From contig CAINLR010000183.1 of assembly GCA_903850425.1 (NCBI GenBank), positions 32,752 to 96,751 of the forward strand: a stretch of 64,000 bases of DNA, in the 5' to 3' direction. Below, one piece after another: positions 31,601 to 49,779 of this stretch (its first letter is position 1; every line of letters starts with the position of its first letter). The translations under genes were made by a program, and so were the position numbers. The notes under the pieces were generated by a model. It ran no database searches, was not told the origin of the DNA, and saw only the letters and a list, made by a program, of their open reading frames with translations. This DNA comes from an uncultured Verrucomicrobia subdivision 3 bacterium. Lineage in GTDB: Bacteria; Verrucomicrobiota; Verrucomicrobiia; Limisphaerales; UBA11358.

Positions 31601-31864
31601 CATGAATTCAGCGGAGCCGCGCGGCGGCGCGAACCGTTCCAGCACGTCCATGATGAGCACGCCGCCGATGCCCACGCGCCGCATTGCTTCGAGGTCGGCG
31701 GTGATGCCGTTGGAGGTGACATTGCCGTTGTTCCAAAACCAATAGACCCACGGCCGCGCGAAATCTGGCGGCTGCTGAAACTGTTTTGCCGTCCCATCCA
31801 GCGGTTTCGCCGGCAGCGAAAAAATCGCCGCCGCCCAAGTCATCAGGACCAATAATCGCTGCAT
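28658..31864 (-). CDS. Secreted glycoside hydrolase (GH106-like / jelly-roll glycosyl hydrolase family; specificity unknown)
   Basis: Start set at MQRLLVLMTWAAAIFSLPA (signal peptide). The N-terminal PWVYWFWNNGNVTSNGITADLEAMRRVGIGGVLIMDV and the C-terminal sugar-binding-type module (FSGTATYATTF ... VKLNGQDCGIAWKQPYQVEV ... ISVANLWPNRMIGD) match this large hydrolase family from memory. Confidence 0.6.
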   Translation of the reverse strand: MQRLLVLMTWAAAIFSLPAKPLDGTAKQFQQPPDFARPWVYWFWNNGNVTSNGITADLEAMRRVGIGGVLIMDVLERFAPPRGSAEFMNPEWQRLFQFSVSEAARLGLEINMANGPGWCGSSGPWITPELSMQKLVWTNLVVTGPTNLSMALPVPNFGNRNRDGFDSQVLFKDYYADIALLAFPATTNQVVATSAVVNLSKQLMADGKLTWAVPPGEWVLQRIGHTPTGSSTRPPVAGGNGLECDKLSRAGIDAHFAGMMAKLIQTAGPLAGKSLTATHIDSWEVGSQNWTPKFRAEFLQRRGYDPLPWLPCLTDTLRAGVSDHKKAIMLGDAAATARFRWDFNQTIAELLAENYSGRLGELAHQHGLRYSLEGYNLPFGDEFTFTARADEPMSEFWTATRPGQNETYRKAAQMASVAHVYGRAIVGAEAFTSGDNEMWKLTPADIKALGDFEFAQGINRFVVHRYAHQPYLDRVPGATMGPWGLHYERTQTWWEMSGAWHAYLARCQFLLRQGKFVADLLYLRPEAPNQTYFNPNPPPPLGYRFDEISAEALMQRVSVKKGRLVLPDGINYRVLVLPSEKNMTPALARKIRDLVSAGATVLASTQSPTTSPSLQGFPQCDDQVIQLGREVWGDCDGKTVTAHTLGKGKLILGQPLTTVLAGLHASADFTANVSLNWIHRQLDGAEIYFVANPAGVAVETRCTFRVRGLRPELWNPETGAISPLATYEKTSTAITVPWRFEPSASAFIVFRQSTQGFDPVVSLRRNGQSVPEPLAASARLEIQRATYGVPGDAQRTRDVRAQVQTMVNDGQTTFQVAELAGAGDPAYGVVKTFSVEYSVDGKTLQASGKDPETVSLQPVVSAPERPAEIVGDSASHLHLVAHEPGNYEWTTASGRTSRAEITTVVSPREITGPWQLSFPPKRGAPAEVMLTNLVSWSDVADDGVKHFSGTATYATTFSFQGAKPEMKTSKFLLALGEVQVMARVKLNGQDCGIAWKQPYQVEVTQALRRGENRLEISVANLWPNRMIGDAALPAAQRFTWSSWEPFTKETPLLKSGLMGPVKLLESNY

Positions 31865-32106
31865 AATATCAAGTTGTTGCGGCCAGATTGTAAACGATTC
31901 ACCGGCGACTGCACTGACAAATACCCGGTGCGGGCCGACGCAATCATCAATGCATTCGAATAAATCCCCTTTGGCTTGCTCCGAACCACCGAACCGGATA
32001 TTGCTGAGGGCATGGGTTTGCACGGTGGTTGCGCTGGTTGCAACCGCACGGTTTGCAACCGGTATTCATCAGCCGAACGATCGTAATTATCCGTGGTTAA
32101 TTTCCT

Positions 32107-32847
32107 GTGAGCATCGCCCCAGAAAACATCACCGCCGTCATCCTGGCCGGCGGCTTTGGCACACGCATCAAACATCTGCTGGGCGATCTGCCCAAGCCGA
32201 TGGCCCCGGTGAACGGCAAGCCGTTTGTCGAATGGGTGGTCCGCTATCTCGCCGCGCAGGGTATCCGCAATGTCATCCTCTCCACCGGCTACCTCGCAGC
32301 GACGGTGGAAAATCATTTTGCGCCGCAACCGGTGAAAAATGTCCGCGTCACCGGCGTGCCGGAAACCACGCCGCTCGGAACGGCGGGCGGTTTTCTGAAT
32401 GCAGCACAGAGCACGGAAAAAAATCCGGAAGCCTGGCTCGTGCTGAATGGCGATTCGCTGGCGGTAGCGCCTCTCGAAAAATTGTTCCGATCACTCGACC
32501 AACCGGAAATCGCCGGCGGCATCCTCGGTGTGCCGATGGCGGACGCCTCGCGTTTCGGCACTCTTTCGCAGAATGCGCAGGGCGAACTGGCGGGTTTCAA
32601 CGAAAAGAAACCAGGCGCGGGCAACATCAACGCCGGTGTGTATCTTTTCCGCGCAGACACGCTGAAAGAGTTTCCTGCGAAGTCGCCGCTGAGTTTCGAG
32701 ACCGACGTGTTTCCCGCGTTGATCGGCAGCAGGGTGCGCTTGAAAACGATCGTGAGCGACGCGCCTTTCCTCGACATCGGCACGCCCGACTCGCTGCCAC
32801 AGGCGGAAGATTTCGTTCGAAATAATCTCGCGCACTTTGCGCTCTGA
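32107..32847 (+). CDS. Sugar-1-phosphate nucleotidyltransferase (HddC / mannose-1-P guanylyltransferase-like)
   Basis: GTG start. Motifs are AVILAGGFGTRIKHLLGDLPKPMAPVNGKPF and NAGVYLF. Confidence 0.8.
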   Translation: MSIAPENITAVILAGGFGTRIKHLLGDLPKPMAPVNGKPFVEWVVRYLAAQGIRNVILSTGYLAATVENHFAPQPVKNVRVTGVPETTPLGTAGGFLNAAQSTEKNPEAWLVLNGDSLAVAPLEKLFRSLDQPEIAGGILGVPMADASRFGTLSQNAQGELAGFNEKKPGAGNINAGVYLFRADTLKEFPAKSPLSFETDVFPALIGSRVRLKTIVSDAPFLDIGTPDSLPQAEDFVRNNLAHFAL

Positions 32848-32853
32848 TCCGTT

Positions 32854-33372
32854 ATGGCCACTCCCAATCCCGAACGCAAAACCGTTTTCGCCACGCCGTG
32901 GTTCCAGGTGCTGGAAGCGCCCAGTGGCGGCAAGCACCCGAATTATTCCATCAACTCGCCGGACTTCGTCTGCATCATCGCGGTGACGGAGAACCATGAA
33001 TTACTGCTGGTCCGGCAGTTTCGTCATGCGGTCGGCACGTTCACGCTGGAACTGCCGGCCGGCCACGTCGAAAAGGACGAAACGCCGGTGCAGGCGGCGC
33101 GCAAGGAATTGCTCGAAGAGACAGGTTATGTGGCGGACACCTTTGAGTTGATCGCCGACCTGTCGCCCTCGCCGGCGCGGTTCACGAACCGGATGTGGTG
33201 CTATTTTGCCGCGAACGCCCGACGTGCTCCCGAGGCTGAACTGGAGGCCGGTATGAGTTGCGTTCTGCACACGCAAGGACTGCCAGCGCTGCTTCGCGAA
33301 CCAGATTTTTACAGCATGGGCAACTGGGCGGCAATCATGGCGGCGGTGGCCCAGGGAAAGCTGCAGCTGTGA
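32854..33372 (+). CDS. NUDIX hydrolase (NDP-sugar hydrolase candidate)
   Basis: Nudix box GHVEKDETPVQAARKELLEETGY. Confidence 0.85.
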   Translation: MATPNPERKTVFATPWFQVLEAPSGGKHPNYSINSPDFVCIIAVTENHELLLVRQFRHAVGTFTLELPAGHVEKDETPVQAARKELLEETGYVADTFELIADLSPSPARFTNRMWCYFAANARRAPEAELEAGMSCVLHTQGLPALLREPDFYSMGNWAAIMAAVAQGKLQL

Positions 33373-33383
33373 GTTTTTTTTTA

Positions 33384-33452
33384 CCACGAAACACACGAAC
33401 TACACGAAAGAATTTGCCCAGACCATTTTCGGGTGGTTCGTGTATTTCGTGG
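33384..33452. repeat. Intergenic 17-bp inverted repeat built from cacgaa units
   Basis: ccacgaaacacacgaac (33384-33400) against gttcgtgtatttcgtgg (33436-33452) is complementary at 16/17. The left arm region contains cacgaa three times, and a T9 run (33372-33382) precedes it. Confidence 0.65.
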
Positions 33453-33532
33453 TTGGCGCTTCCCGCTTTCCGCTTGTGGCAAAATTTCGCAGCCGTTAGC
33501 TTTCGCCACAACACAATCTTGAATCCGCAACC

Positions 33533-34606
33533 ATGATCATCAGCAGAACTCCATTTCGCATCTCGTTTTTTGGCGGCGGCACGGATTACCCGGCGTGGTA
33601 TCGGCAGCACGGCGGCGCGGTGCTGGCGGCGACCATCAACAAGTATTGCTACCTGACGTGCCGTTACCTGCCGCCGTTTTTTGAGCACCGCATCCGCGTC
33701 GTCTATTCCAAGATCGAGAACTGTCAGAAGCCGGAGGAAATTCAGCATCCATCGGCGCGCGAGACGCTGCGCTTTTTGAAAATCGCGCGCGGCATTGAAA
33801 TTCATCACGACGGCGATTTGCCCGGTCGCAGCGGCATGGGCTCGAGTTCGGCGTTTACCGTCGGGTTGTTGAACGCGCTTTACGCCTTGCAAGGTCGCGC
33901 GGTTGGCAAAAAGCAGCTCGCCTCGGAGAGCATCCACATCGAGCAGGACATCTTGAAAGAAATGGTCGGCTCACAGGATCAGGTCTGCGCGGCTTACGGC
34001 GGCTTGAACCGCATCAGCTTTCTGCAGAACGGCGAATTTTCGGTGCAGCCCATGACGCTGACGCATGAGCGGGTGGAGGAATTGACCTCGCATCTGATGC
34101 TGTTTTACACCGGCATCAAGCGCACAGCGGCTTCGGTGGCGACGAGTTTTGTGCCGAGCATCACCGAGCGCTCGGCATTGCTGAACAAGATGCGCGACTG
34201 CGTGGACCAAGGCTGTGAAATCCTAAACGGCAACGGCGACCTAGCGCCGTTCGGCGACCTGCTGCATGAGGCGTGGCTCGCGAAGCGCGGTTTGAGCGAC
34301 AAGATTTCCAACGAGCAAGTGGATGCGGCTTACGATGCCGCCCGGGCGGCGGGCGCGCTTGGCGGAAAGCTGCTGGGCGCGGGCGGTGGCGGATTTTTGC
34401 TGGTATTCGCCCCACCGGCTAAACACGCCAAGATCAAGAAACAGTTGAACCGGCTGATTCACGCGCCCTTCAAGTTCGAGTTCGGCGGCAGCCAGGTGAT
34501 TTTCCACGAATTGGAGGAAGATTATTCAGCGCATGACAAGGCCCGCGACAAACAACAGATCGAGGCGTTCCGTGAGTTGGACGCGAGTGCGCCGGGGGCG
34601 AGCTGA
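33533..34606 (+). CDS. GHMP-family sugar kinase (HddA / D-glycero-D-manno-heptose-7-phosphate kinase-like)
   Basis: MIISRTPFRISFFGGGTDYPAWY, GHMP motif GDLPGRSGMGSSSAFTVG, and C-terminal GGKLLGAGGGGFLL. Confidence 0.8.
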   Translation: MIISRTPFRISFFGGGTDYPAWYRQHGGAVLAATINKYCYLTCRYLPPFFEHRIRVVYSKIENCQKPEEIQHPSARETLRFLKIARGIEIHHDGDLPGRSGMGSSSAFTVGLLNALYALQGRAVGKKQLASESIHIEQDILKEMVGSQDQVCAAYGGLNRISFLQNGEFSVQPMTLTHERVEELTSHLMLFYTGIKRTAASVATSFVPSITERSALLNKMRDCVDQGCEILNGNGDLAPFGDLLHEAWLAKRGLSDKISNEQVDAAYDAARAAGALGGKLLGAGGGGFLLVFAPPAKHAKIKKQLNRLIHAPFKFEFGGSQVIFHELEEDYSAHDKARDKQQIEAFRELDASAPGAS

Positions 34607-34735
34607 ATTGTCTTTGGCCACTTATTTTTTCCCTCGCCCCTCCGCAGGCGAGGGAAGCCGGAAAAACTCCGCCCAACCCGTTTTGCCCGCGTCAAAACTT
34701 GACCCCATTCCATTGCTGCGGCAAGCTATCCGCTC

Positions 34736-35335
34736 ATGACCGCCCAAGATTTGATCGCCTTTGAGACGGAGATTGCGGATTTGTTTAATGCCGCAAAAAT
34801 CCGCGCGCCCATCCATCTTTACTACGGCAACGAGGAAAAGATGATTGAGCTGTTCCGTGATGTGAAGCCGGAAGACTGGGTGTTCTGCTCCTGGCGCAGT
34901 CACTATCAGTGCCTGCTGAAAGGCGTGCCGCCGGAAGAATTGAAGGCGGAAATTCTCGCGGGCCACTCCATTTCACTCTGCTTCCCGAAACAGCGCGTGG
35001 TGTCGTCGGCGATTGTCGGCGGCATCATCCCCATTGCGGTCGGTGCGGCGCTGGGTCTCAAACGCAGCGGCCAAGAAGGCATGGTGCATTGCTTCGCCGG
35101 CGAAATGACGAGCGAGACGGGAATCTTCCACGAGAGCGTGAAGTATTCTTACAATCACCAACTCCCGATCCGCTTCATTGTCGAGGACAATGGCAAATCC
35201 GTCTGCACGGACACGCGCGAGGCGTGGAACCAGCCGGTGTTGAGCTATGAAAACAACACCCATCCGCTGGTAACCTTCTACAAGTATCAAACCAAATATC
35301 CGCACGCCGGAGCCGGCTCGCGCGTTCAATTTTAA
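34736..35335 (+). CDS. ThDP-dependent enzyme, E1 alpha-like PP-domain subunit (short form, 199 aa)
   Basis: The ThDP-binding-type segment GGIIPIAVGAALGLKRSGQEGMVHCFAGEMTSETGIFHESVKYSYNHQLPIRFIVEDNG has the spacing of GDG-X26-NN but reads GEM...DN. It is much shorter than the E1 alpha lengths I recall. Confidence 0.6.
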   Translation: MTAQDLIAFETEIADLFNAAKIRAPIHLYYGNEEKMIELFRDVKPEDWVFCSWRSHYQCLLKGVPPEELKAEILAGHSISLCFPKQRVVSSAIVGGIIPIAVGAALGLKRSGQEGMVHCFAGEMTSETGIFHESVKYSYNHQLPIRFIVEDNGKSVCTDTREAWNQPVLSYENNTHPLVTFYKYQTKYPHAGAGSRVQF

Positions 35336-35347
35336 TTTTATTTTTGC

Positions 35348-35884
35348 ATGAAGTATTTTGACGAACTTTGCCGCGCGATGGAATACCTCGCGCGCGACCA
35401 GCGGACGATGTTTCTCGGCCAGGCGGTCGCCTGCCCTGGAACGGCGATGACGAACACGCTGAAGAATGTGGCACGGGAAAAACTCTTGGAACTGCCCGTC
35501 ACGGAAGATTTACAGATGGGCATGTCCACCGGCCTCGCACTCACGGGCATCGTGCCGGTGAGCATTTATCCGCGCTGGAATTTTCTGCTCTGCGCGGTGA
35601 GCCAACTGGTCAGCCATTTGGACAAGCTGCCCGCCATGTCTGCCGGCGGCTACCAGCCGAAGGTGATTATCCGCACGGGCATCGGTTCGGAGCGCCCGCT
35701 GCACCCGCAGCAACAGCACGTCGGCGATTTCACGGACGCGTTCCGGCTGATGTGCAAAAACATCGAGGTCATCCGCCTCGACGAACCTGAACACATTTTC
35801 CCGGCCTACCAAAAAGCATTGGAACGCGAGGACGGCAAGAGCACAATCATTGTTGAATATGGCGACTACTACAGCGAAAAGTGA
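35348..35884 (+). CDS. ThDP-dependent enzyme, E1 beta-like Pyr-domain subunit (short form, 178 aa)
   Basis: FLGQAVACPGTAMTNTLKNV ... ELPVTEDLQMGMSTGLALTGIVPV resembles the transketolase/E1-beta pyrimidine-binding domain (catalytic Glu context PVTED). No C-terminal transketolase_C domain is present. Confidence 0.6.
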   Translation: MKYFDELCRAMEYLARDQRTMFLGQAVACPGTAMTNTLKNVAREKLLELPVTEDLQMGMSTGLALTGIVPVSIYPRWNFLLCAVSQLVSHLDKLPAMSAGGYQPKVIIRTGIGSERPLHPQQQHVGDFTDAFRLMCKNIEVIRLDEPEHIFPAYQKALEREDGKSTIIVEYGDYYSEK

Positions 35885-37070
35885 ACCCGTGACCGCAGCA
35901 AACCTGCGCGACTGGCCCCTGATGTCCAACAACATCACGCGCGGCGACTTGGATGCCCTGATTGAATTCCTCAAGCAGGACGATCCGATTCTCACACAAT
36001 CAAAGAACGTCATCGCCTTCGAGCAGGAATGGTCCGAATGGGTGGGCGTGAAGCACAGCGTCTTCGTCAACTCCGGTTCCTCCGCGAACCAGATCACGAT
36101 GGCCGCCCTCCGCGAGCGTTTCGGCCCCGGCGAAGTCATCGTGCCAACGCTGACGTGGGTTTCGGACATCGCCTCCGTGCTGCAAGCGGGCTTTGATCCG
36201 GTGTTTGTGGATATCAATCCGCGCACGCTCGGCATGGACACGGCGCAAGTCATCGCTGAATTAAACAGCAGCACGCGCGCGGTATTCCTCACGCACATCC
36301 TCGGCTACAACGCGCTCGATCAGGTTTTACTCGACGAGTGCCAGAAGCGCAACATCCCGATCATCGAGGACGTCTGCGAATCGCACGGCGCGACGTTCAA
36401 AGGCAAACGCCTTGGCGCCTATGGCTTCGCCTCGAATTTCTCGTTTTACTACGCGCACCACATGAGCACCATTGAAGGTGGCATGGTGTGCACGAATGAC
36501 TACGAGTTCTACGAAATGCTCCGCATGTTCCGCTCGCATGGCATGGTGCGCGAGAGCAAGGACGCGGCCCTGAAGGCGCGCTACCAATCTGAATTCCCGG
36601 ATTTGAACCCCGATTTCATCTTCGCGTTTCCGGCCTACAACGTCCGCAGCACGGAAATCAACGCCGTGCTGGGTCGCACGCAATTGAAGCGTCTTGACGC
36701 CAACAACGCGAAGCGCACGCGCAACCTGAATTGCTTCCTCGACAATCTGGACCCGAAGAAGTTCTACACCGACTTCGACCGCGAGGGCAGTTGCAACTAC
36801 GCCTTCACGCTCGTTCTGCGGGAAGCGGATCAGGCGCTCTGGGATCGCGTCGAAAAAACGTTGCGTGGACGCAAGATTGAATTCCGTCGCGGCACGTCCG
36901 GCGGCGGCAATCAGCTGCGCCAGCCGTTCCTGCGCAAACTGCTCGGCGACGAGTTTGAAAAGTATCCGGCCGTCAACCACGTCCATTTCTTCGGTGCCTA
37001 CATCGGCAATTATCCCGACCTCGAAACCGATCGCATCGCGGCGCTCTGTCAGTTGCTCAATTCCATTTGA
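35850..37070 (+). CDS. DegT/DnrJ/EryC1-fold PLP/PMP enzyme of the sugar 3-dehydratase type (ColD / E1-like, His replaces Schiff-base Lys)
   Basis: FVNSGSSANQ, EDVCESHGA, and SNFSFYYAHHMSTIEGG, where the paralog at 43283-44392 has CFSFYPGKNLGAAGEGG. The start is uncertain (35850 or 35859); either overlaps the upstream gene by 26-35 nt. Confidence 0.7.
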   Translation: MLNMATTTAKSEPVTAANLRDWPLMSNNITRGDLDALIEFLKQDDPILTQSKNVIAFEQEWSEWVGVKHSVFVNSGSSANQITMAALRERFGPGEVIVPTLTWVSDIASVLQAGFDPVFVDINPRTLGMDTAQVIAELNSSTRAVFLTHILGYNALDQVLLDECQKRNIPIIEDVCESHGATFKGKRLGAYGFASNFSFYYAHHMSTIEGGMVCTNDYEFYEMLRMFRSHGMVRESKDAALKARYQSEFPDLNPDFIFAFPAYNVRSTEINAVLGRTQLKRLDANNAKRTRNLNCFLDNLDPKKFYTDFDREGSCNYAFTLVLREADQALWDRVEKTLRGRKIEFRRGTSGGGNQLRQPFLRKLLGDEFEKYPAVNHVHFFGAYIGNYPDLETDRIAALCQLLNSI

Positions 37071-37073
37071 TTT

Positions 37074-38597
37074 ATGAATCGCCCGCTGGATGTCCTTTTT
37101 GTAAACGCCGATTCGTCGGCCCTGGCTTATCAAGATTTGAGCAAGGATTTCTCAGCGATTGAACCGCCCACGTGGGCGCTGCTGCTCGCGCAAGCCTGCC
37201 GTTCCAATGGTTTTGGCGTGGCCATCCTCGACTGCGGCGCAGAACGGCTCTCGGAGGAACAATCCGTCAAGCGAATTGAAGAAATGCCCGCACGGCTAGT
37301 TTGCTTTGTGGTTTACGGCCAGAATCCGAATTCCGGCACGACCAACATGATCGGCGCGACTTCGCTGGCCCGAAAACTGAAGGCAGCGAAGCCGGACACC
37401 AAGACCTGTTTTGTCGGCTCGCACACCAGCGCATTGCCGATGGAAGTAATCTCGCTCAAGGAAGTGGATTTCATCCTGCTAAATGAAGGCGTTTATGCGC
37501 TGCAGAATCTGTTGCGGACGGATTTGCAGTCCAGCCTCGACCAGGTCAAAGGCATCGGCCACAAGCAAGGCGGCGCGCCCATGCTGAACGCGCCAGAGAT
37601 GGTCGTGCCGAACGAGCGGATGGATATTGATCTGCCGGGCTATGCGTGGGATCTGCTGCCCTACAAGAATACGCCGCTGGATTTGTATCGCGCCCACTTC
37701 TGGCACGCGGAGTTCAACCACGATCTGCGCACACCGTTCGCCGCGATCTATACGTCGCTGGGCTGCAAATTCAAATGCGATTTCTGCATGATCAACATCG
37801 TCAACCGCACGGACAATGCGGATGGCGTGGTCTCGGCAAATTCGCCGAACATGCGGTTCTGGTCGCCGCAGTTCATGCTCAAGGAATTTGAAAAGCTTGC
37901 CGCGATGGGCGCAAAGACCATCCGCGTCTCGGACGAGATGTTCTTCCTGAACAAGAACTATTACGAGCCGCTGCTGGACGGACTCATCGAACGCCAGTTG
38001 GACTTGCGGATGTGGACCTATTCCCGCATTGACACCGTGCGTCCGCAGTATCTGGAGAAATTCCGCAAGGCGGGCATCAACTGGCTGGCACTGGGTGTCG
38101 AGGCCGGCAACCAACTGGTGCGCCGCGAAGTTTCCAAAGGCAGTTTTCAGGACGTCAACATCCGCGAAGTCATCAAGACCGTCCGCGAATCCGGCTTGTA
38201 TGTCATTTCCAATTACATCTTCGGCTTTCCCGAAGATACGCACGACACGATGCAGCAAACGCTCGATCTCGCACTGGAACTGAACACGGAGATGGCCAAC
38301 ATGTATCCGTGCCAGGCGCTGCCGGGCAGCCCGCTTTATTACACGGCCAAGGCGAACGGCTGGAAACTCCCCTCCTCGCCGAGCGGCTATGGATTCCTTT
38401 CCTACGACAGCGAACCGTTGCCGACGAAGCATCTCTCCGCCGCACAGGTGCTGAAATTCAGAGATGAAGCCTGGAAGACCTATTTCACCAATCCGGCTTA
38501 CTTGCAGTCGGTGGAAAAAACCTTCGGCCCGCAGCAGCGCAAAAATGTCGAGGCCATGGCCAGTTTCCGGTTGAAACGGAAATTGCTGGGCGATTAA
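37074..38597 (+). CDS. B12-binding-domain radical SAM enzyme (class B, methyltransferase-like)
   Basis: N-terminal Rossmann-like B12 domain (VLFVNADSS...AILDCGAE...FVVYGQNP), then a CX3CX2C cluster SLGCKFKCDFCMI. 507 aa. Confidence 0.8.
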   Translation: MNRPLDVLFVNADSSALAYQDLSKDFSAIEPPTWALLLAQACRSNGFGVAILDCGAERLSEEQSVKRIEEMPARLVCFVVYGQNPNSGTTNMIGATSLARKLKAAKPDTKTCFVGSHTSALPMEVISLKEVDFILLNEGVYALQNLLRTDLQSSLDQVKGIGHKQGGAPMLNAPEMVVPNERMDIDLPGYAWDLLPYKNTPLDLYRAHFWHAEFNHDLRTPFAAIYTSLGCKFKCDFCMINIVNRTDNADGVVSANSPNMRFWSPQFMLKEFEKLAAMGAKTIRVSDEMFFLNKNYYEPLLDGLIERQLDLRMWTYSRIDTVRPQYLEKFRKAGINWLALGVEAGNQLVRREVSKGSFQDVNIREVIKTVRESGLYVISNYIFGFPEDTHDTMQQTLDLALELNTEMANMYPCQALPGSPLYYTAKANGWKLPSSPSGYGFLSYDSEPLPTKHLSAAQVLKFRDEAWKTYFTNPAYLQSVEKTFGPQQRKNVEAMASFRLKRKLLGD

Positions 38598-38603
38598 CTC
38601 GCC

Positions 38604-39557
38604 ATGAAAAAGGTTCTCGTCACCGGCGGCACCGGCTTTGTCGGCAAACACCTGCAATCGGAACTCACGCGACGCGGCATCGCCCACTTCGCGTTTGGCG
38701 GACGTCAGTTCGACCTGACCAAATGGGATCAAGCCAAAGCCGTCTTCCAGCAACATCAGGATGTGGATTTGATTCTGCACCTGGCCAGTTTTCAAGCGGC
38801 GGGAGAATTTCCCGGCCAGCACACGGCGGAACAATACTTCGTCAATACTCTCATCCACAGCCACACGCTGGAGGCTTGGCGGAAGTTTATTCCCGGTGCC
38901 AAGCTGATCACCGTTGGCGCTTCGTGCGCGTATCCGAGCGCGGCGCAGGGGATGACCGAGGATAAGTTTTTCGAGGGTGCCATCCACGGCAGCGTTTATT
39001 CCTACGGCGCGACCAAGCGAATGCTTTATACCGGCATCCTTGCTTACAACGACCAATACAAACTGAACGGCAGCTACGTTGTTCCGGCCGCGATGTATGG
39101 CGAAGCTGACGATTTTAACGAGGCGACGGCGCACGTTCCGGCCGCGCTAGTCGGGCGTTTTGCCCGCGCGGTGAAGTCCAACGCGCCGGAAGTGGAGATC
39201 TGGGGCGACGGCTCCCAGGTGCGCGATTTCATGGACGTGAAGATATTTGTAAATGGGCTGCTCGACATCGCGCCACGCCTGGATCACGATTTGATTAACC
39301 TCGTCCCGCATGGCGGAAAAACTGTGAAGGAGCTGGCACTCACCGTCTGTGAAGCTTCGGGCTATCAAGGCAAAGTGGTATTCAACGCCAACCGTTACAC
39401 CGGTGCTAAGGAAAAATTTCTGGATGCCAACAAGCTGCGGGAAAAGTTCGGCATGGTCATCAATGGCGACCTCGCCCCCGGCATCCGCCGCACGATGGAT
39501 TGGTATTTCGCAAATTACGAAGCCGTGAAGGACCGGCGAAAGTTTCCGAAAACATGA
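38604..39557 (+). CDS. NAD(P)-dependent sugar epimerase/reductase (GDP-L-fucose synthase / ColC-like SDR)
   Basis: KVLVTGGTGFVGKHL, with catalytic YSYGATK (YxxxK). Confidence 0.8.
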   Translation: MKKVLVTGGTGFVGKHLQSELTRRGIAHFAFGGRQFDLTKWDQAKAVFQQHQDVDLILHLASFQAAGEFPGQHTAEQYFVNTLIHSHTLEAWRKFIPGAKLITVGASCAYPSAAQGMTEDKFFEGAIHGSVYSYGATKRMLYTGILAYNDQYKLNGSYVVPAAMYGEADDFNEATAHVPAALVGRFARAVKSNAPEVEIWGDGSQVRDFMDVKIFVNGLLDIAPRLDHDLINLVPHGGKTVKELALTVCEASGYQGKVVFNANRYTGAKEKFLDANKLREKFGMVINGDLAPGIRRTMDWYFANYEAVKDRRKFPKT

Positions 39558-40735
39558 GTTCGCCAACCATTCATCCGGGCGAGATCACCATCATTATGGC
39601 CACGCGCGGCCGGCCAGAGATGCTCGCGCAGGTTTTCGCCTCACTCAAAGCCCACACCGCACAGAAAGACAAGGTCTGCATCTGGCTTTATGTGGACGAG
39701 GACGATCGGGTGACACGGGATGCGATTGAGGCGGGGAAATTGAGCGATGCCGGCATCAAGATCAACTGGCACTTCGGCGGCCAGACTGCCGGCCTTTGTG
39801 AAACACAGCACACGCTCTGGCACAATTCCGGCCACACGTCCGAGATCTACATGATCACCTGCGACGACGCCGTTTACAGCACGCCCGGCTGGGACGACGT
39901 GCTGCGCGACGCTTCCAAACAATTTCCCGATGGCATATTTGTGGCCAGTCCGCATGACCCGATGACGGCGGACACCTGCACGTATCCCATCTTCGGCTGG
40001 CGCTGGCTGGAAACGTTGCAGACGATTTTCCCCGGGCATTTTCCCTACTGGTATGATGACCGCTGGGTGCATCAAATTGGTGAGCTGAGCGGAAGGTTTG
40101 TCTGGCTTTCCATTGTGATGAATGGCATTCGGGGCAAGGGAAAAACCCGGCGCATGCGTGACTTGCCGTTTTGGGCACGTTTCTTCCAACTCGCGCTCGA
40201 CGAACGAAAAACTTCTGCGAAAAAACTGATTGAAGCCATGAATCTTGACCCTGCAAACAAGCAAGCCGCTCTCGCAAAAGCGGACCAACGCGCGACGGAA
40301 ATTGAGGCGCAACAGGACAAGAAATTCTCCGACCTTTACGCGGTGTTTCAGGAAGAACGGTTCACGTTGCATACTCCGGAGGAGCGGCGCGCGTGGAATC
40401 CGGCTTATTTCCAGAAGGAATCCGCCGCCGTGGCGCAAATGCTTGGCTATGCCCAGCAGCGCATCGCTGAAAAAAAATTCGAGGAGGCGCTGAAGTTCAT
40501 TGATGCCACGTTCATGTCCAATCTGCGCGTCCGGCAGGCGCAGGACATGAAGGTGGCATGCCTCCGCGCGCTGGGCAGAAACGCCGAAGCGGACAAACTC
40601 GCCGGTGAAGTTCTGGCTGCGTGGCCTGAAATGAATGCCGCCCGCCGCCTGTTTCGTTTTCTCGGCATGGTTGCCAGCGACGGCAAAGCCATGGTCGTCG
40701 GTTTTCTTTCCGGCGGCGGCAAGAAAAAGAAATGA
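39554..40735 (+). CDS. GT-A-like glycosyltransferase candidate with helical C-terminal half
   Basis: ATG 39554 overlaps the upstream stop (ATGA). N-terminal EITIIMATRGRPEML ... LYVDEDD ... ITCDDAV resembles a GT2-like fold with acidic motifs. The C-terminal roughly 180 aa is helical and TPR-like. The family call is weak. Confidence 0.4.
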   Translation: MSSPTIHPGEITIIMATRGRPEMLAQVFASLKAHTAQKDKVCIWLYVDEDDRVTRDAIEAGKLSDAGIKINWHFGGQTAGLCETQHTLWHNSGHTSEIYMITCDDAVYSTPGWDDVLRDASKQFPDGIFVASPHDPMTADTCTYPIFGWRWLETLQTIFPGHFPYWYDDRWVHQIGELSGRFVWLSIVMNGIRGKGKTRRMRDLPFWARFFQLALDERKTSAKKLIEAMNLDPANKQAALAKADQRATEIEAQQDKKFSDLYAVFQEERFTLHTPEERRAWNPAYFQKESAAVAQMLGYAQQRIAEKKFEEALKFIDATFMSNLRVRQAQDMKVACLRALGRNAEADKLAGEVLAAWPEMNAARRLFRFLGMVASDGKAMVVGFLSGGGKKKK

Positions 40736-41931
40736 CTTACGACACGGTCATTGTGGGCGGCGGGATCGTCGGACTGGCGACGGCTTTTCGGTTATTGGAA
40801 GCGAGGCCGCAGTTGAAAATTTTGCTGCTTGAGAAAGAGGCGAAACTCGCCGCGCATCAGACCGGCAACAACAGCGGTGTCCTCCATTCGGGACTTTACT
40901 ACAAACCCGGTTCGGAGAAGGCGCGTCTGAGCGTCAGCGGACTGCAACAGATTATCGCCTTCTGCCGCGAGCACGGCATCGCGCACGAGCAGTGCGGAAA
41001 AATCGTGGTCGCGACCACCAAGGAAGAAGTGGAACAGCTTGAAAATTTATGGACGCGGGGCAACGCGAACGGGCTCCTCGGCTTGCGGAAACTGAATCCC
41101 GCGCAGATCAAGGAGATCGAACCTCATGCCACCGGGCTGGCGGCGATTCATGTGCCGCAGGAAGGCATCGTGGATTATCCCGCGGTTTGCGAGAAACTCG
41201 GCGAACTCATCCGCCTGCGCGGCGGCGAAATCAAGCTCAACACCCGCGTGGAAAAAATTCTTCCCGCTGGCGGCGAAAAGGTGGTTGAAACTTCCGCTGG
41301 AACATTTCGCGCCAAGTTCGTCATTGCGTGCGGCGGGTTGCACGCGGACCGGCTCGTGAAAGCCGCCGGGCAAAAACCGACCGCCAAGATCATTCCGTTT
41401 CGCGGCGAATATTTTCAGATCAAAAAAGCGCGGCAGCATCTGGTCCGGCATTTGATCTACCCCGTGCCCGATCCGAAGTTTCCCTTCCTCGGCGTGCATT
41501 TCACCCGCTTGGTGCATGGCGGCATTGAAGCCGGACCCAATGCCGTGCTCGCCTTCGCGCGCGAAGGCTACAAATGGACGGACGTGAACGTGCGCGATCT
41601 GGCGGAATCGCTGTGCTTTCCCGGCTTGTGGAAATTTCTGGCGAAATATCCAAGCCTGTGCGGCTACGAAATTCGCCGCTCGCTCTCCAAAGCTGAGTTC
41701 TGCCGATCCTTGCAAAAGCTCGTGCCGGACATCCGCGAGGACGATTTGGAAACGGGCGGGGCCGGCGTGCGCGCACAGGCGATGCTGCCGGACGGAAAAC
41801 TGGTGGAAGATTTTCACTTCGACGAGGCCCCCGGCATTCTGCACGTCGTCAACGCGCCATCGCCCGCCGCCACGGCGTCGCTCGCGATCGGGCAGACGAT
41901 TTGCCAGCGGGTATTGCCTTCGCTGAGTTAG
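40732..41931 (+). CDS. lhgO: FAD-dependent L-2-hydroxyglutarate oxidase-like protein
   Basis: MTYDTVIVGGGIVGLATAFRL ... LLLEKEAKLAAHQTGNNSGVLHSGLYYKPGS closely follows the LhgO N-terminus as I recall it. The start overlaps the upstream stop (ATGA 40732-40735). Confidence 0.75.
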   Translation: MTYDTVIVGGGIVGLATAFRLLEARPQLKILLLEKEAKLAAHQTGNNSGVLHSGLYYKPGSEKARLSVSGLQQIIAFCREHGIAHEQCGKIVVATTKEEVEQLENLWTRGNANGLLGLRKLNPAQIKEIEPHATGLAAIHVPQEGIVDYPAVCEKLGELIRLRGGEIKLNTRVEKILPAGGEKVVETSAGTFRAKFVIACGGLHADRLVKAAGQKPTAKIIPFRGEYFQIKKARQHLVRHLIYPVPDPKFPFLGVHFTRLVHGGIEAGPNAVLAFAREGYKWTDVNVRDLAESLCFPGLWKFLAKYPSLCGYEIRRSLSKAEFCRSLQKLVPDIREDDLETGGAGVRAQAMLPDGKLVEDFHFDEAPGILHVVNAPSPAATASLAIGQTICQRVLPSLS

Positions 41932-42011: not shown

Positions 42012-42773
42012 TCAAAGCCCCGTCGGATGGTCCAGAAATTCCCACGGCAGCTTGAATGTTTTGGAAAGTTCCGCCGCCAGAGCCTTCACGCCAAAAGTCT
42101 CCGTCGCGTAATGGCCGCCGTAGAAAACATTCAAGTCCAGCTCCTCGGCGAGCGCGTAAGTCCAGTGCGGGCCTTCGCCGGTGATGAAGGTATCCACGCC
42201 CTCGCTCGCTGCCACCTTCAAATCGCCACCCGCGCCACCGGTGACCACACCGATGCAATCGCAAATTTCCTTTCCACCGGGAAGGATCGTGGGCTTTGCG
42301 CCAGTCGCGCGTTCCAGTCGTGCCGCCAGTTCGTTTCGGGAAATTCTAGTTTGCGACTTGAACCCGATGGTCTGTCCATGGCTGGCAAAGAACGGCTTCA
42401 ATTTTCTTAGGCCAAGCGCGGCACACAACTGCGCGTTGTTGCCAAACTTGGGATGCGCGTCGAGCGGCAGATGGGAGCTGTAAACCGCGAGCTTGTTCTC
42501 AATGAGGAGTTGGACCAGCTCATATTTCTTACCCGTCCACGGCTGTGCCGGATTCCAAAACAGGCCGTGATGCACGATCAACAGATCTGCCTTGGCCGCG
42601 ATTGCCAGCTTCACCGTGGCCAGGCTGGCATCCACCGTCGCCGCGATGCGGGTGACCGTGCCGGAGTTTTCCACCTGCAAACCGTTGACCGCACCGTCGT
42701 AGTCGCCAATTTCACTGGTGCGAAGAACTTGGTCACAGTAATTGACGATGGTGGCAAGTGCGGCTTTCGGCAT
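42012..42773 (-). CDS. Nif3-family dinuclear metal-centre protein (GTP cyclohydrolase 1 type 2 homolog)
   Basis: DLLIVHHGLFW, and C-terminal FITGEGPHWTYALAEE ... YGGHYATE, typical of NIF3/YqfO. Confidence 0.8.
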   Translation of the reverse strand: MPKAALATIVNYCDQVLRTSEIGDYDGAVNGLQVENSGTVTRIAATVDASLATVKLAIAAKADLLIVHHGLFWNPAQPWTGKKYELVQLLIENKLAVYSSHLPLDAHPKFGNNAQLCAALGLRKLKPFFASHGQTIGFKSQTRISRNELAARLERATGAKPTILPGGKEICDCIGVVTGGAGGDLKVAASEGVDTFITGEGPHWTYALAEELDLNVFYGGHYATETFGVKALAAELSKTFKLPWEFLDHPTGL

Positions 42774-43126: not shown

Positions 43127-43282
43127 AAGGCGATTGGCTGAAAATAAATCGTGAACGCGCCTGCGGCAAATGAAATCCGGCGGAAAATCTTTCGCTTGCC
43201 TGACCTTGCCCTTGGCGTAGCATCCCGCCAGTTAATATATTTTAGTGTTTCAGCCGCTCCAATATTCACCGATAATCCTCAA

Positions 43283-49251: not shown

Positions 49252-49260
49252 TTCGCCCTG

Positions 49261-49758: not shown

Positions 49759-49779
49759 CGGTGGCCGCGCAAATAAATT

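What the first reader, a model, noticed from the sequence alone, without database searches (positions are those of the whole stretch)
32107..41931. Ten-gene NDP-sugar operon combining a ColD-type 3-dehydratase, a split mini-E1 ThDP enzyme, a B12-radical-SAM enzyme and an LhgO-like flavoenzyme: candidate pathway to an undescribed branched or C-alkylated deoxysugar
All ten genes are co-directional, with gaps of 3-160 nt and three overlapping junctions (35850/35884, ATGA 39554-39557, ATGA 40732-40735).

The activation module has an HddC-like nucleotidyltransferase, a NUDIX hydrolase and an HddA-like GHMP kinase.

The tailoring module has:
- E1-alpha-like (199 aa) and E1-beta-like (178 aa) ThDP subunits
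- a PLP-fold enzyme with His in place of the catalytic Lys (3-deoxygenation chemistry)
- a class-B B12 radical SAM enzyme (CKFKCDFC)
- a GDP-fucose-synthase/ColC-like SDR
- a GT-A-like protein
- an FAD oxidase

Precedents exist for the pieces separately. ColD/ColC make colitose. The E1-like pair AviB1/AviB2 is proposed to add a two-carbon branch in avilamycin. ThDP-dependent YerE acts in yersiniose synthesis. B12-rSAM enzymes C-methylate sugars in antibiotic pathways. I know of no characterised pathway that combines them. The operon has no 4,6-dehydratase, GmhA or GmhB.
Basis: partly seen in the sequence, partly recalled or inferred. Interest (0 to 1): 0.75.

Follow-up and report, generated by a model that had tools for sequence, protein, structure and literature searches.

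The report
Conserved GDP-heptose tailoring operon, product unknown
This ten-gene operon is one copy of an uncharacterised gene set, found in at least five bacterial phyla, that most likely turns an activated seven-carbon sugar into a 3-deoxy, carbon-branched surface sugar using thiamine-, PLP- and B12/radical-SAM-dependent enzymes.

Summary
The ten co-directional genes are real, at the stated coordinates, and all under purifying selection.

The radical-SAM gene has orthologs of 68-95% identity in at least 275 species-level genomes. These span Verrucomicrobiota, Planctomycetota, Nitrospirota, Pseudomonadota and a cyanobacterium. Homologs of 38-41% identity sit on plasmids of cultured Solidesulfovibrio magneticus RS-1 and Azospirillum argentinense Az39.

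Next to it recur a heptose-type GHMP kinase, a nucleotidyltransferase, a ThDP enzyme and a ColD-type 3-dehydratase. Often there is also a close homolog of Campylobacter Cj1427 (GDP-heptose C4-dehydrogenase), a fucose-synthase-like reductase, GmhA/GmhB, a NUDIX hydrolase and LhgO.

So the substrate is most likely GDP-D-glycero-D-manno-heptose, not a hexose. That explains why no 4,6-dehydratase is present. Cj1427 uses 2-oxoglutarate as oxidant and makes L-2-hydroxyglutarate, so LhgO is best read as a recycling partner, not a tailoring oxidase.

The window's own locus lacks the C4-dehydrogenase that its closest relative carries.

What the ThDP and radical-SAM enzymes do is inferred only: a two-carbon branch at C4, then C-methylation or ring closure.

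I found no paper describing this gene set.

The parts
32107..32847 (+). g1, sugar-1-phosphate nucleotidyl (probably guanylyl) transferase, HddC/ManC-like, 246 aa
   Evidence: Pfam NTP_transferase 97 bits. NCBIfam HddC 131 bits and mannose-1-P guanylyltransferase 148 bits, both below the equivalog cut-offs. A homolog lies near the rSAM gene in 31 of 43 complete loci. Synteny with L006 starts exactly at its start codon.
32854..33372 (+). g2, NUDIX hydrolase, 172 aa
   Evidence: Pfam NUDIX 60.8 bits. A NUDIX gene recurs in 15 of 43 complete loci, and also in L082 and in S. magneticus pDMC1.
33533..34606 (+). g3, GHMP sugar-phosphate kinase, HddA-like (heptose 7-phosphate 1-kinase type), 357 aa
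   Evidence: NCBIfam HddA 136 bits (cut-off 600). Best PDB matches are heptose-phosphate kinases: 3k85 (134 bits), WcbL 4usk, 4n3o. Present in 37 of 43 complete loci at 54-92% identity.
34736..35335 (+). g4, minimal E1-alpha-like ThDP (diphosphate-binding domain) subunit, 199 aa
   Evidence: Pfam E1_dh 57 bits, covering profile positions 6-175 of 300. It aligns to 2-oxo acid dehydrogenase E1-alpha. The canonical GDG...ENN reads GEM...EDN; G122, E150 and N152 are >=95% conserved in 43 orthologs.
35348..35884 (+). g5, minimal E1-beta-like ThDP (pyrimidine-binding domain) subunit, 178 aa, no Transketolase_C domain
   Evidence: Pfam Transket_pyr 31.8 bits. Aligns to PDH E1-beta. The putative cofactor-activating Glu53 in 'PVTEDLQMG' is >=95% conserved in 40 orthologs.
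35859..37070 (+). g6, ColD-type PLP/PMP-dependent NDP-4-keto-sugar 3-dehydratase, 403 aa (406 aa from TTG 35850)
   Evidence: DegT 216 bits. Best PDB match is ColD/WbdK 2gms (153 bits). His replaces the catalytic Lys, and the 'HH' is invariant in 62 family members. Present in 41 of 43 complete loci.
37074..38597 (+). g7, B12-binding-domain radical-SAM enzyme, 507 aa, reaction unknown
   Evidence: Pfam B12-binding 44 bits and Radical_SAM 70 bits. CxxxCxxC is invariant. Every NCBIfam hit is far below cut-off (best HpnJ 112 bits vs 577.6). Best PDB match by sequence is AprD4, 38-46 bits. Orthologs of 68-95% identity occur in 275 species genomes.
38604..39557 (+). g8, GDP-L-fucose-synthase-like extended SDR (probable keto-reductase, possibly also epimerase), 317 aa
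   Evidence: NCBIfam Fcl 138 bits (cut-off 500). PDB GDP-fucose synthetase 1bsv 115 bits. A homolog is present in 18 of 43 complete loci.
39554..40735 (+). g9, GT-A-fold glycosyltransferase-like protein with a helical C-terminal half, 393 aa
   Evidence: No Pfam, NCBIfam or PDB sequence hit. 285 homologs; every source name given is 'hypothetical protein', and the few with an organism name are Verrucomicrobia or Akkermansiaceae. In the AF2 model, residues 1-130 average pLDDT about 90 and confidence falls beyond that. Foldseek top hits are GT2 enzymes (hyaluronan synthase, PcManGT, TarP, SpsA), E 7e-8. Other clades carry a different GT2-like gene next to the rSAM gene.
40732..41931 (+). g10, L-2-hydroxyglutarate oxidase/dehydrogenase (LhgO), 399 aa
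   Evidence: NCBIfam NF008726 546.6 bits, above the 299 cut-off, full length. An LhgO gene is in 24 loci; 21 of these also have the Cj1427-like SDR, and in 14 the two are immediate neighbours, in three different gene orders. It is also in the S. magneticus pDMC1 locus.

Best explanation
The operon is this genome's copy of a widespread, uncharacterised pathway that tailors GDP-D-glycero-D-manno-heptose for a cell-surface glycan.

Proposed steps, with the status of each:
1. Sedoheptulose 7-phosphate is isomerised by GmhA (encoded elsewhere here). It is phosphorylated at C1 by g3, dephosphorylated at C7 by GmhB (elsewhere) and guanylylated by g1. This is inferred from homology and from relatives whose operons contain GmhA and GmhB.
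2. A Cj1427-type SDR oxidises C4, using 2-oxoglutarate to re-oxidise its bound NADH and releasing L-2-hydroxyglutarate. The enzymology is known for Cj1427. The gene is present in most relatives but absent from this window.
3. LhgO (g10) oxidises L-2-hydroxyglutarate back to 2-oxoglutarate, so the oxidant is catalytic. This is my inference from gene linkage.
4. The ColD-type enzyme (g6) removes the C3 hydroxyl to give GDP-3-deoxy-4-keto-heptose. This rests on the His-for-Lys signature, and on the Campylobacter HS:5 C3-dehydratase doing exactly this in vitro.
5. The two-subunit ThDP enzyme (g4/g5) adds a two-carbon unit to the C4 ketone. This is by analogy with YerE and with AviB1/AviB2 and Pau11/Pau12, and is inferred only.
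6. The B12-domain radical-SAM enzyme (g7) modifies the branched intermediate, by C-methylation or by a radical C-C ring closure. The reaction is unknown.
7. The fucose-synthase-like SDR (g8) reduces a remaining ketone. The GT-A protein (g9) transfers the finished sugar. NUDIX (g2) hydrolyses a GDP-sugar, as Gmm does in GDP-fucose loci (from my own knowledge of that family).
For: Cross-phylum linkage:
- A genome scan with rSAM peptide patterns found 275 species genomes.
- In 43 loci with at least 8 kb on both sides of the rSAM gene, the counts are: ColD-type 41, ThDP enzyme at least 39, GHMP kinase 37, Cj1427-like SDR 33, nucleotidyltransferase 31, Fcl-like SDR 18, LhgO 17, NUDIX 15, GmhB 10, GmhA 4.

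Heptose origin:
- The L082 operon reads ManC-rSAM-GHMP-Fcl-like-TktN-TktC-ColD-NT-GmhA-Cj1427-like-LhgO-NUDIX-GmhB.
- g3's best solved relatives are heptose-phosphate kinases.
- Nitrospira loci sit next to three GT9 heptosyltransferase-like genes and GmhB.

C4 oxidation:
- The recurrent SDR matches PDB 6VO6/6VO8 over its full length (375 bits, E 2e-111). No other PDB chain reaches E 1e-20.
- That 6VO6 is Cj1427 comes from my own knowledge. The depositor's molecule name fits.
- Cj1427 chemistry, including formation of L-2-hydroxyglutarate, is described in PMC10680097.

3-deoxygenation:
- PMC10680097 reports that Cj1427 plus the HS:5 C3-dehydratase give GDP-D-glycero-3-deoxy-4-keto-heptose (m/z 616.08).

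ThDP step:
- A ThDP enzyme is almost always next to the rSAM gene, but in three interchangeable forms: mini-E1, full-length E1 alpha/beta, and split transketolase.
- The cofactor motifs are conserved.
- The E1-pair precedent for a C4 acetyl branch is cited in PMC4753412.
- The Fcl-like reductase is optional (18 of 43 loci). That fits a C4 ketone consumed by carboligation rather than by reduction.

The linkage holds at 38-41% rSAM identity in cultured strains: S. magneticus RS-1 pDMC1 has the whole set plus lhgO, and A. argentinense Az39 p5 has the core.
Against: - The window itself has no Cj1427-like gene within 64 kb. Step 2 therefore needs a gene elsewhere in the genome, or this copy is incomplete.
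- GmhA and GmhB are also outside the window.
- g1 and g3 score well below NCBI's HddC and HddA equivalog cut-offs, so heptose specificity is not proven.
- Nothing here shows which substrate the ThDP enzyme or the rSAM enzyme uses, or in what order they act.
- Displacement of the E1-type enzyme by split transketolase could mean a different donor, or a sugar-phosphate-level reaction.
- A few loci lack the ColD-type gene (L019, L028, L060) and A. lipoferum 4B lacks a nearby ThDP gene. The steps are therefore separable.
- LhgO is absent from many loci, including most Nitrospira loci.
- MAG taxon labels are as deposited and several look mis-binned.
Confidence: 0.55

Rival explanations
1. Same early steps, but the radical-SAM enzyme is an AprD4-like radical dehydratase acting on the heptose C6-C7 diol (or another diol). 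The ThDP enzyme then acts like a transketolase on the new carbonyl, extending the chain to a higher-carbon deoxysugar instead of branching at C4.
For: AprD4 is the best PDB sequence match of g7 and is among the top fold matches. Some lineages use a genuine split transketolase, with 190 bits to a transketolase model. The Fcl-like SDR often lies directly beside the rSAM gene, as the AprD3 reductase partners AprD4 (the AprD3 pairing is from my own knowledge).
Against: The AprD4 match is weak (38-46 bits) and lower than the HpnJ match of 112 bits. The rSAM model is low-confidence (pLDDT 61), so fold matches are not discriminating. Most loci have E1-type rather than transketolase-type ThDP enzymes. 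The Fcl-like SDR is absent from more than half of complete loci.
Confidence: 0.12
2. LhgO is a tailoring oxidase that acts on the sugar itself. For example, it could oxidise a hydroxy-acid-like or glycerol-phosphate-like side chain of the heptose. On this reading it does not recycle L-2-hydroxyglutarate.
For: g10 is translationally coupled to g9 by an ATGA overlap. The family also resembles glycerol-3-phosphate oxidases (119 bits), and heptose 7-phosphate has a glycerol-phosphate-like tail.
Against: g10 and the proteobacterial copy both exceed NCBI's curated LhgO equivalog cut-off over the full length (546 and 363 bits vs 299). LhgO is immediately adjacent to the Cj1427-like gene in 14 of 24 loci and in three different gene orders. 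The known by-product of that enzyme is exactly LhgO's substrate.
Confidence: 0.12
3. The pathway starts from a hexose (GDP-mannose) and makes a colitose- or yersiniose-like 3,6-dideoxyhexose derivative. The 4,6-dehydratase would be encoded elsewhere.
For: g1 scores slightly higher against a mannose-1-phosphate guanylyltransferase model than against HddC. The ColD and Fcl-like pair is the colitose pair.
Against: No Gmd-type gene turned up in the window, or among the recurrent gene families and called genes that I examined in related loci (I did not query for Gmd specifically). Instead, a Cj1427-type C4-dehydrogenase, GmhA, GmhB and a heptose-type GHMP kinase recur. A GHMP kinase has no role in the GDP-mannose route.
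Confidence: 0.07
4. In this particular genome the operon is an incomplete remnant. Loss of the upstream C4-dehydrogenase (and the YfhO-like gene) by rearrangement has cut the pathway, so no final sugar is made.
For: Synteny with L006 breaks exactly at the g1 start. L006 has the YfhO-like and Cj1427-like genes there, while the window has a divergent GH106 rhamnosidase gene 84 nt away.
Against: All ten genes are intact and show purifying-selection signatures. Other genomes also keep the cassette in two places; for example L001 and L010 lack the activation genes nearby. Only 64 kb of the genome is visible.
Confidence: 0.12

Closest known systems
Campylobacter jejuni capsular GDP-heptose modification pathways: GmhA/HddA/GmhB/HddC, Cj1427 C4-dehydrogenase, HS:5 C3-dehydratase, Cj1428-type C4-reductases (PMC10680097)
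   Same: HddA-like kinase and HddC-like transferase. A Cj1427 homolog of about 57% identity in relatives. A ColD-type C3-dehydratase. A fucose-synthase-like reductase. GDP as the carrier. The predicted intermediate, GDP-D-glycero-3-deoxy-4-keto-heptose, was made in vitro by mixing Cj1427 with the HS:5 dehydratase.
   Different: The paper's list of modification enzymes for those pathways has no ThDP enzyme, radical-SAM enzyme or LhgO. The 3-deoxy sugars it reports as made by C. jejuni itself are 3,6-dideoxy heptoses made through a 4,6-dehydratase. The 3-deoxy (6-hydroxy) series was presented as made by mixing enzymes in vitro. Here the gene content implies that it is made naturally. The window's own locus lacks the C4-dehydrogenase.
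Colitose pathway (GDP-mannose, then Gmd, ColD, ColC)
   Same: ColD is the best solved match of g6 and shares the His-for-Lys active site. g8 is of the ColC/Fcl type. The carrier is GDP.
   Different: No Gmd and no hexose route. There is a heptose-type kinase instead. ThDP, radical-SAM and LhgO genes are added.
C4 two-carbon branching of deoxysugars: YerE in yersiniose A; E1-like pairs AviB1/AviB2 (avilamycin) and Pau11/Pau12 (paulomycin) (PMC4753412)
   Same: 3-deoxygenation followed by ThDP-dependent attachment of a pyruvate-derived acetyl group to a 4-keto sugar, with optional later ketoreduction. An E1 alpha/beta-type pair is used.
   Different: Those act on CDP- or TDP-hexoses in O-antigen or antibiotic pathways. 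The pair here is cut down to the two cofactor-binding domains (199 + 178 aa), and in other lineages is swapped for full-length E1 or split transketolase. Activity on a GDP-heptose is untested.
B12-domain radical-SAM enzymes that act on sugars: class B C-methyltransferases (GenK, Fom3; from my own knowledge) and the proposed cyclopentane-forming enzyme HpnJ. The radical-SAM enzyme calditol synthase Cds is a related precedent (PMC9092360).
   Same: N-terminal B12-binding domain plus a CxxxCxxC radical-SAM core. HpnJ is the best curated family hit.
   Different: The 112-bit HpnJ score is far below the 577.6 cut-off. No curated family or solved structure is close. The family has 359 representatives at 50% clustering with E <= 1e-30, and I found no member with a specific functional name (the names seen are generic).
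E. coli-type L-2-hydroxyglutarate oxidase LhgO
   Same: g10 passes the curated equivalog model over its full length.
   Different: It is embedded in, and translationally coupled to, a sugar operon. Its proposed role as recycling partner of a ping-pong sugar dehydrogenase has not been described, as far as I could find.

Membership tests
ColD-type NDP-4-keto-sugar 3-dehydratase | DegT/aspartate-aminotransferase-fold sugar enzyme | tested here: met
   PF01041 216.5 bits. The best PDB hits are the four ColD/WbdK entries, 147-153 bits.
ColD-type NDP-4-keto-sugar 3-dehydratase | His in place of the Schiff-base Lys | tested here: met
   'FSFYYAHHMSTIEGG' aligns with ColD 'FSSFYSHHIATMEGG'. HH is >=95% conserved in 62 relatives. 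The His is retained in S. magneticus and Az39.
ColD-type NDP-4-keto-sugar 3-dehydratase | Glutamate-dependent C3 dehydration activity | not testable with these tools
   Needs an enzyme assay.
GDP-D-glycero-D-manno-heptose activation (GmhA, HddA, GmhB, HddC) | HddA and HddC equivalogs | tested here: inconclusive
   HddA 136 bits vs cut-off 600; HddC 131 bits vs cut-off 300. The best solved relatives of g3 are heptose-phosphate kinases.
GDP-D-glycero-D-manno-heptose activation (GmhA, HddA, GmhB, HddC) | GmhA isomerase and GmhB phosphatase present | tested here: not met
   Absent from the 64 kb window. Present inside the operon in L065, L080, L082 and L066, and GmhB in Nitrospira loci. They may be shared with ADP-heptose synthesis elsewhere in the genome.
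Cj1427-type C4-dehydrogenase route to 4-keto-heptose | Cj1427 homolog in the locus | tested here: not met
   No tblastn hit in the window at E < 1e-5. Present in 33 of 43 complete related loci and in the closest relative L006 (375 bits to 6VO6).
Colitose / GDP-6-deoxyhexose pathways | GDP-mannose 4,6-dehydratase | tested here: not met
   None in the operon. The only other extended SDR in the window (61485-62537) is HpnA/reductase-like.
Class B (cobalamin) radical-SAM enzymes | CxxxCxxC cluster motif and N-terminal B12-binding domain | tested here: met
   PF04055 69.8 bits and PF02310 44.4 bits (cut-off 32.1). C231, C235 and C238 are invariant.
Class B (cobalamin) radical-SAM enzymes | Membership of a curated methyltransferase (or other) subfamily | tested here: not met
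   All 29 NCBIfam hits are far below cut-off. The top ones are HpnJ 112, BchE 78 and PhpK 71 bits. PDB sequence hits are at most 46 bits.
E1 (2-oxo acid dehydrogenase) / transketolase ThDP enzymes | Diphosphate-binding and pyrimidine-binding domains with cofactor motifs | tested here: met
   E1_dh 57 bits and Transket_pyr 31.8 bits, both above cut-off. There is a variant metal motif, G-E...E-D-N, and a conserved Glu53.
E1 (2-oxo acid dehydrogenase) / transketolase ThDP enzymes | Full-length alpha (~320-370 aa) and beta (~325 aa with a Transketolase_C domain) architecture | tested here: not met
   g4 covers only profile positions 6-175 of 300. g5 has no Transketolase_C domain. Full-length versions occupy the same position in L001.
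L-2-hydroxyglutarate oxidase (LhgO) | Score above the curated equivalog cut-off over the full length | tested here: met
   NF008726: 546.6 bits vs 299, protein residues 3-392 aligned to profile positions 1-389.
GT-A (GT2-like) glycosyltransferase | GT-A fold with an acidic DxD-type motif | tested here: inconclusive
   The fold is supported: AF2 N-terminal domain pLDDT is about 90, and Foldseek gives GT2 enzymes at E 7e-8 with TM only 0.3-0.6. D48, D50, D51 and D104, D105 are invariant. There is no sequence-family hit, and the donor and acceptor are unknown.

The most novel reading that the evidence does not exclude
The cassette may make a carbocyclic nonose of the caryose type. [quoted passage not shown]

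The gene set maps one-to-one onto that structure:
- C1-C7 come from GDP-heptose.
- The 3-deoxy position comes from the C4-dehydrogenase plus the ColD-type dehydratase.
- C8 and C9 (a methyl, hence '9-deoxy') come from a pyruvate-derived acetyl group that the E1-like ThDP enzyme adds at C4.
- The C7-C8 bond that closes the cyclopentane is made by the radical-SAM enzyme, whose nearest curated relative is HpnJ, the proposed cyclopentane-forming enzyme of hopanoid cyclitol ethers.

A 2022 review states that the biosynthetic origin of caryose is unknown (PMC9092360). If this reading is right, it would give the first genes for carbocyclic LPS sugars. It would also show that they are made in many phyla, not in one plant pathogen.

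Probability: 0.2. Interest if true: 0.88.

Novelty: new variant of a known kind. Interest (0 to 1): 0.7.

Why it matters
- It defines a discrete, strongly conserved and unnamed nucleotide-sugar pathway. The rSAM gene is 68-95% identical across phyla. The pathway occurs in abundant environmental lineages (Verrucomicrobiota, Planctomycetota, Nitrospira, methylotrophs) and in at least two cultured, sequenced strains where it could be tested.
- It predicts that GDP-3-deoxy-4-keto-heptose, so far made only by mixing Campylobacter enzymes, is a natural intermediate.
- It gives a physiological answer to where the L-2-hydroxyglutarate from the unusual ping-pong dehydrogenase Cj1427 goes: a linked LhgO.
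- It exposes a minimal two-domain E1-type ThDP enzyme.
- It presents a B12-domain radical-SAM family whose reaction on a primary-metabolism sugar nucleotide is unknown.
- It offers a concrete candidate for the unsolved biosynthesis of branched or carbocyclic higher sugars of LPS.

Tried and rejected
- Literature searches found no description of the cassette. I tried combinations of 3-dehydratase, radical SAM, cobalamin, GDP, GHMP kinase, transketolase, heptose, LhgO and O-antigen.
- PDB id 6VO6 could not be tied to Cj1427 through the held papers. That link rests on my own knowledge plus the depositor's molecule name.
- The AF2 model of the radical-SAM enzyme was poor (pLDDT 61). Its Foldseek hits (TsrM, AprD4, OxsB, TokK; TM about 0.3) only confirm the general class, so I draw no functional conclusion from them.
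- The all-library representative search showed that the rSAM family grades from 69% down to about 30% identity with no sharp gap (359 representatives at E <= 1e-30). It gave no functional anchor.
- My first greedy ORF clustering let antisense shadow ORFs displace true genes, including the window's rSAM gene. I replaced it with tblastn family maps.
- I searched for a remnant of the C4-dehydrogenase in the window and found none. Only 84 nt separate g1 from the divergent GH106 gene.
- The last protein search, with a betaproteobacterial ortholog and aimed at Trinickia caryophylli, saturated at 80% identity. The only named cultured hit was Chitinivorax sp. B.
- I rejected the reading that the second DegT (43151-44392) belongs to the pathway. 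It is separated by a minus-strand NIF3 gene and is not co-conserved.
- The promoter and terminator scans were not informative, with counts close to the shuffle expectation.

Full report
**Observation**

The region 32107-41931 holds ten + strand ORFs.
- Intergenic distances in gene order are 6, 160, 129 and 12 nt, an overlap (g5/g6), 3 and 6 nt, and two ATGA stop/start overlaps. I read both ATGA overlaps directly at 39554-39557 and 40732-40735.
- Independent gene calls on metagenome contigs that carry the identical rSAM protein give g6 as 403 aa. Its start is therefore probably ATG 35859, not TTG 35850.
- Homolog lengths of 388-395 aa place the g9 start at ATG 39554.
- Against the closest relative (L006, 72-86% nucleotide identity per gene), every gene is much more conserved at codon positions 1+2 (84-95%) than at position 3 (47-70%). 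All ten are real genes under constraint.

**What the genes are**

- g1 is an HddC/ManC-like nucleotidyltransferase.
- g2 is a NUDIX hydrolase.
- g3 is an HddA-like GHMP kinase. Its best solved relatives are heptose-phosphate kinases (3k85, WcbL 4usk, 4n3o).
- g4 and g5 are the diphosphate-binding and pyrimidine-binding domains of an E1-type ThDP enzyme and nothing more.
  - g4 covers profile positions 6-175 of 300.
  - g5 lacks the Transketolase_C domain.
  - The metal motif reads G-E...E-D-N instead of G-D-G...N-N.
  - G122, E150, N152 and the beta-subunit Glu53 are at least 95% conserved among 40-43 orthologs.
- g6 is closest to ColD/WbdK (153 bits). It has His at the Schiff-base Lys position, invariant in 62 relatives.
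- g7 has a B12-binding domain and an invariant CxxxCxxC, but fits no curated family. HpnJ scores 112 bits against a cut-off of 577.6, then BchE 78 and PhpK 71. PDB sequence matches are at most 46 bits (AprD4).
- g8 is GDP-fucose-synthase-like.
- g9 has no sequence-family hit. Its first ~130 residues model confidently (mean pLDDT about 90) as a GT-A fold, with confidence falling beyond that, and match GT2 enzymes.
- g10 passes NCBI's L-2-hydroxyglutarate oxidase equivalog model (546.6 bits vs 299).

**Context**

- The window is chromosomal: secretin, histidine kinase, cytochrome oxidase and aromatic amino acid genes lie upstream.
- A GH106 rhamnosidase gene is divergent from g1, 84 nt away.
- A NIF3 gene on the minus strand follows g10.
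- A separate polysaccharide cluster with its own NusG-like gene starts at 46.6 kb.

**Co-conservation**

- The rSAM protein has more than 7,000 database homologs. The top 120 are all at least 73% identical. The few that carry an organism name are mostly Verrucomicrobiota.
- A scan of one genome per species found 275 genomes with a relative. The 80 best loci (68-95% identity) are labelled Verrucomicrobiota, Planctomycetota, Nitrospira, Beta- and Gammaproteobacteria and a Spirulina isolate, plus a few labels that look mis-binned.
- tblastn family maps and counts in the 43 loci with at least 8 kb on each side give:

| Gene family | Loci out of 43 |
|---|---|
| ColD-type dehydratase | 41 |
| ThDP enzyme | at least 39 |
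| GHMP kinase | 37 |
| ~312 aa SDR (Cj1427-like) | 33 |
| Nucleotidyltransferase | 31 |
| Fcl-like SDR | 18 |
| LhgO | 17 |
| NUDIX | 15 |
| GmhB | 10 |
| GmhA | 4 |

- Gene order differs between phyla, so the linkage is not a single inherited arrangement.
- The ThDP enzyme comes in three interchangeable forms at the same place: mini-E1 (most loci), full-length E1 alpha/beta (L001, L018, L021, L024, L025, L029, L030, L033) and split transketolase (L019, L052, L065, L080, L082).
- Different GT2-like genes abut the rSAM gene in different clades. Nitrospira loci lie beside three GT9 heptosyltransferase-like genes.

**Cultured carriers**

- Solidesulfovibrio magneticus RS-1 plasmid pDMC1 encodes GT2-GT2-rSAM(38%)-NUDIX-kinase-E1alpha-E1beta-Fcl-like-DegT(His form)-Cj1427-like-NT, then a GT-C-type transferase and lhgO.
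- Azospirillum argentinense Az39 plasmid p5 has split transketolase, rSAM (41%), a Cj1427-like SDR (67% to L006's), kinase, NT and a ColD-type DegT.
- RefSeq names for all of these genes are generic.
- A. lipoferum 4B has only Fcl-like-rSAM-kinase-NUDIX nearby.

**The key recurrent gene that the window lacks**

- The ~312 aa SDR matches PDB 6VO6/6VO8 over its full length (375 bits, E 2e-111, about 57% identity). No other chain reaches E 1e-20.
- From my own knowledge these entries are Cj1427, the GDP-D-glycero-D-manno-heptose C4-dehydrogenase of C. jejuni. The depositor's molecule name agrees, but I could not confirm it in a held paper.
- PMC10680097 describes the chemistry:
  - Cj1427 holds NADH tightly and is re-oxidised by 2-oxoglutarate, which becomes L-2-hydroxyglutarate.
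  - Cj1427 plus the HS:5 PLP-dependent C3-dehydratase convert GDP-heptose into GDP-D-glycero-3-deoxy-4-keto-heptose in vitro.
- The window has no such SDR.
- Synteny with L006 starts exactly at g1. L006 carries a YfhO-like membrane protein and the Cj1427-like gene immediately upstream, where the window has the GH106 gene.

**Inference**

*Heptose, not hexose.*
- The substrate is most likely GDP-D-glycero-D-manno-heptose.
- This explains the GHMP kinase, the occasional in-operon GmhA and GmhB (for example L082: ManC-rSAM-GHMP-Fcl-like-TktN-TktC-ColD-NT-GmhA-Cj1427-like-LhgO-NUDIX-GmhB) and the absence of any 4,6-dehydratase.

*LhgO as a recycling partner.*
- It passes the LhgO model in both Verrucomicrobia and Proteobacteria.
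- It co-occurs with the Cj1427-like gene in 21 of 24 loci and is its immediate neighbour in 14, in three gene orders.
- Its substrate is the dehydrogenase's by-product.
- I therefore read it as a recycling enzyme that makes 2-oxoglutarate catalytic. This is my inference, and I found no paper proposing it.

*Status of the first half.* The route GDP-heptose, 4-keto, 3-deoxy-4-keto rests on characterised homologs. It is not shown for these proteins.

**The second half is open**

- The near-obligatory pairing of a ThDP enzyme with the rSAM enzyme argues for carboligation at C4.
  - So does the optional status of the Fcl-like reductase.
  - There are precedents of E1-like pairs and YerE adding a pyruvate-derived acetyl group to a 4-keto-3-deoxy sugar (PMC4753412).
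- The rSAM enzyme could then methylate, which is the usual class B chemistry.
- Alternatively it could form a C-C bond. Its nearest curated relative, HpnJ, is a proposed cyclopentane-forming enzyme (PMC9092360).
- If it closes C7 onto the acetyl carbonyl, the product would be a 4,8-cyclo-3,9-dideoxy-nonose. That is the skeleton of caryose from B. caryophylli LPS, whose biosynthesis the 2022 review calls unknown. I rate this at about 0.2, because I could not test whether that organism has the cassette.
- A third option is an AprD4-like radical dehydration followed by transketolase-type chain extension.

**Comparison and novelty**

- The system works like the Campylobacter GDP-heptose tailoring pathways joined to yersiniose/avilamycin-type branching. 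It adds a radical-SAM step and a cofactor-recycling flavoenzyme.
- It is not a colitose pathway (no Gmd).
- It is not a member of any curated B12-rSAM subfamily.
- Its ThDP enzyme lacks the full E1 architecture.
- I file it as a new variant of a known kind (NDP-sugar tailoring). The product is unknown and one enzyme has an unknown reaction.

**Limits**

- The genome scan used two peptide patterns and kept 80 of 275 loci.
- tblastn thresholds can miss divergent members.
- MAG taxonomy is as deposited.
- Only 64 kb of the source genome is visible.
- Nothing here is biochemical evidence for these particular proteins.

Noticed in passing
window 32023-32107; L006 1544-5171: Synteny with the closest relative breaks exactly at the g1 start codon. 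L006 has a YfhO-like 894 aa membrane protein and the Cj1427-like C4-dehydrogenase there. The window instead has a divergent GH106 alpha-L-rhamnosidase gene (28658-32023, minus strand) only 84 nt away.
   Followed up: yes
L001 6716-8720; L082 13459-15266; window 34736-35884: Three non-orthologous ThDP enzymes occupy the same slot next to the rSAM gene in different lineages: mini-E1 (199 + 178 aa), full-length E1 alpha/beta (318 + 348 aa) and split transketolase (278 + 324 aa). The mini-E1 is an unusually small two-domain ThDP enzyme.
   Followed up: partly
window 46626-63667: A separate polysaccharide (EPS/O-antigen-type) cluster. It contains a NusG-like paralog, an initiating polyprenyl glycosylphosphotransferase, a Gfo/Idh/MocA sugar dehydrogenase, a hexapeptide acetyltransferase, a FemAB-like GNAT, a Wzz/tyrosine-kinase-like protein, a GT4, a Wzy-like polymerase/ligase, an MBOAT, an HpnA-like SDR and a second Gfo/Idh/MocA enzyme.
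   Followed up: partly
window 43151-44392: A second DegT-family protein scores 423 bits against the Pfam DegT family. By NCBIfam it is PseC-like, 293 bits, below cut-off. It is separated from the operon by a minus-strand NIF3 gene (42012-42773) and is not co-conserved with the cassette.
   Followed up: partly
window 3582-6311: A secretin appears as two same-frame ORFs: N0 + Secretin_N domains at 3582-5009 and the Secretin domain at 5028-6311. They are separated by a TAA stop and 18 nt. This is either two genes or a secretin interrupted by a stop codon.
   Followed up: no
window 24727-28119: An 1130 aa minus-strand protein with ricin-type lectin and laminin-G/concanavalin-like domains lies beside the GH106 rhamnosidase. 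The pair suggests a glycan-degrading function next to the sugar-synthesis operon.
   Followed up: no
P0243, P0245-P0249 and similar: Many representatives of the wider rSAM family are 640-940 aa long and match the query in two stretches. They carry a large insertion or fusion near query residue 233, between the B12 domain and the radical-SAM core.
   Followed up: no
L087 10135-11880 and 8913-10001 (A. argentinense Az39 p5): Beside the Azospirillum copy of the cassette lie a second 'cobalamin-dependent protein' (581 aa) and a class I SAM methyltransferase. Several transposases surround the locus, which suggests a mobile and possibly more elaborate version.
   Followed up: no
L019, L028, L060 (and the short contigs L021, L038, L046, L054): Some loci keep the rSAM and ThDP genes (and the kinase) but have no ColD-type gene nearby. 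The 3-deoxygenation step therefore seems dispensable in some variants.
   Followed up: partly
window 34591-34618: A terminator-like hairpin (11 pairs) spans the g3 stop codon, ahead of the 129 nt gap before g4. It could be an internal attenuation point between the activation genes and the tailoring genes.
   Followed up: no
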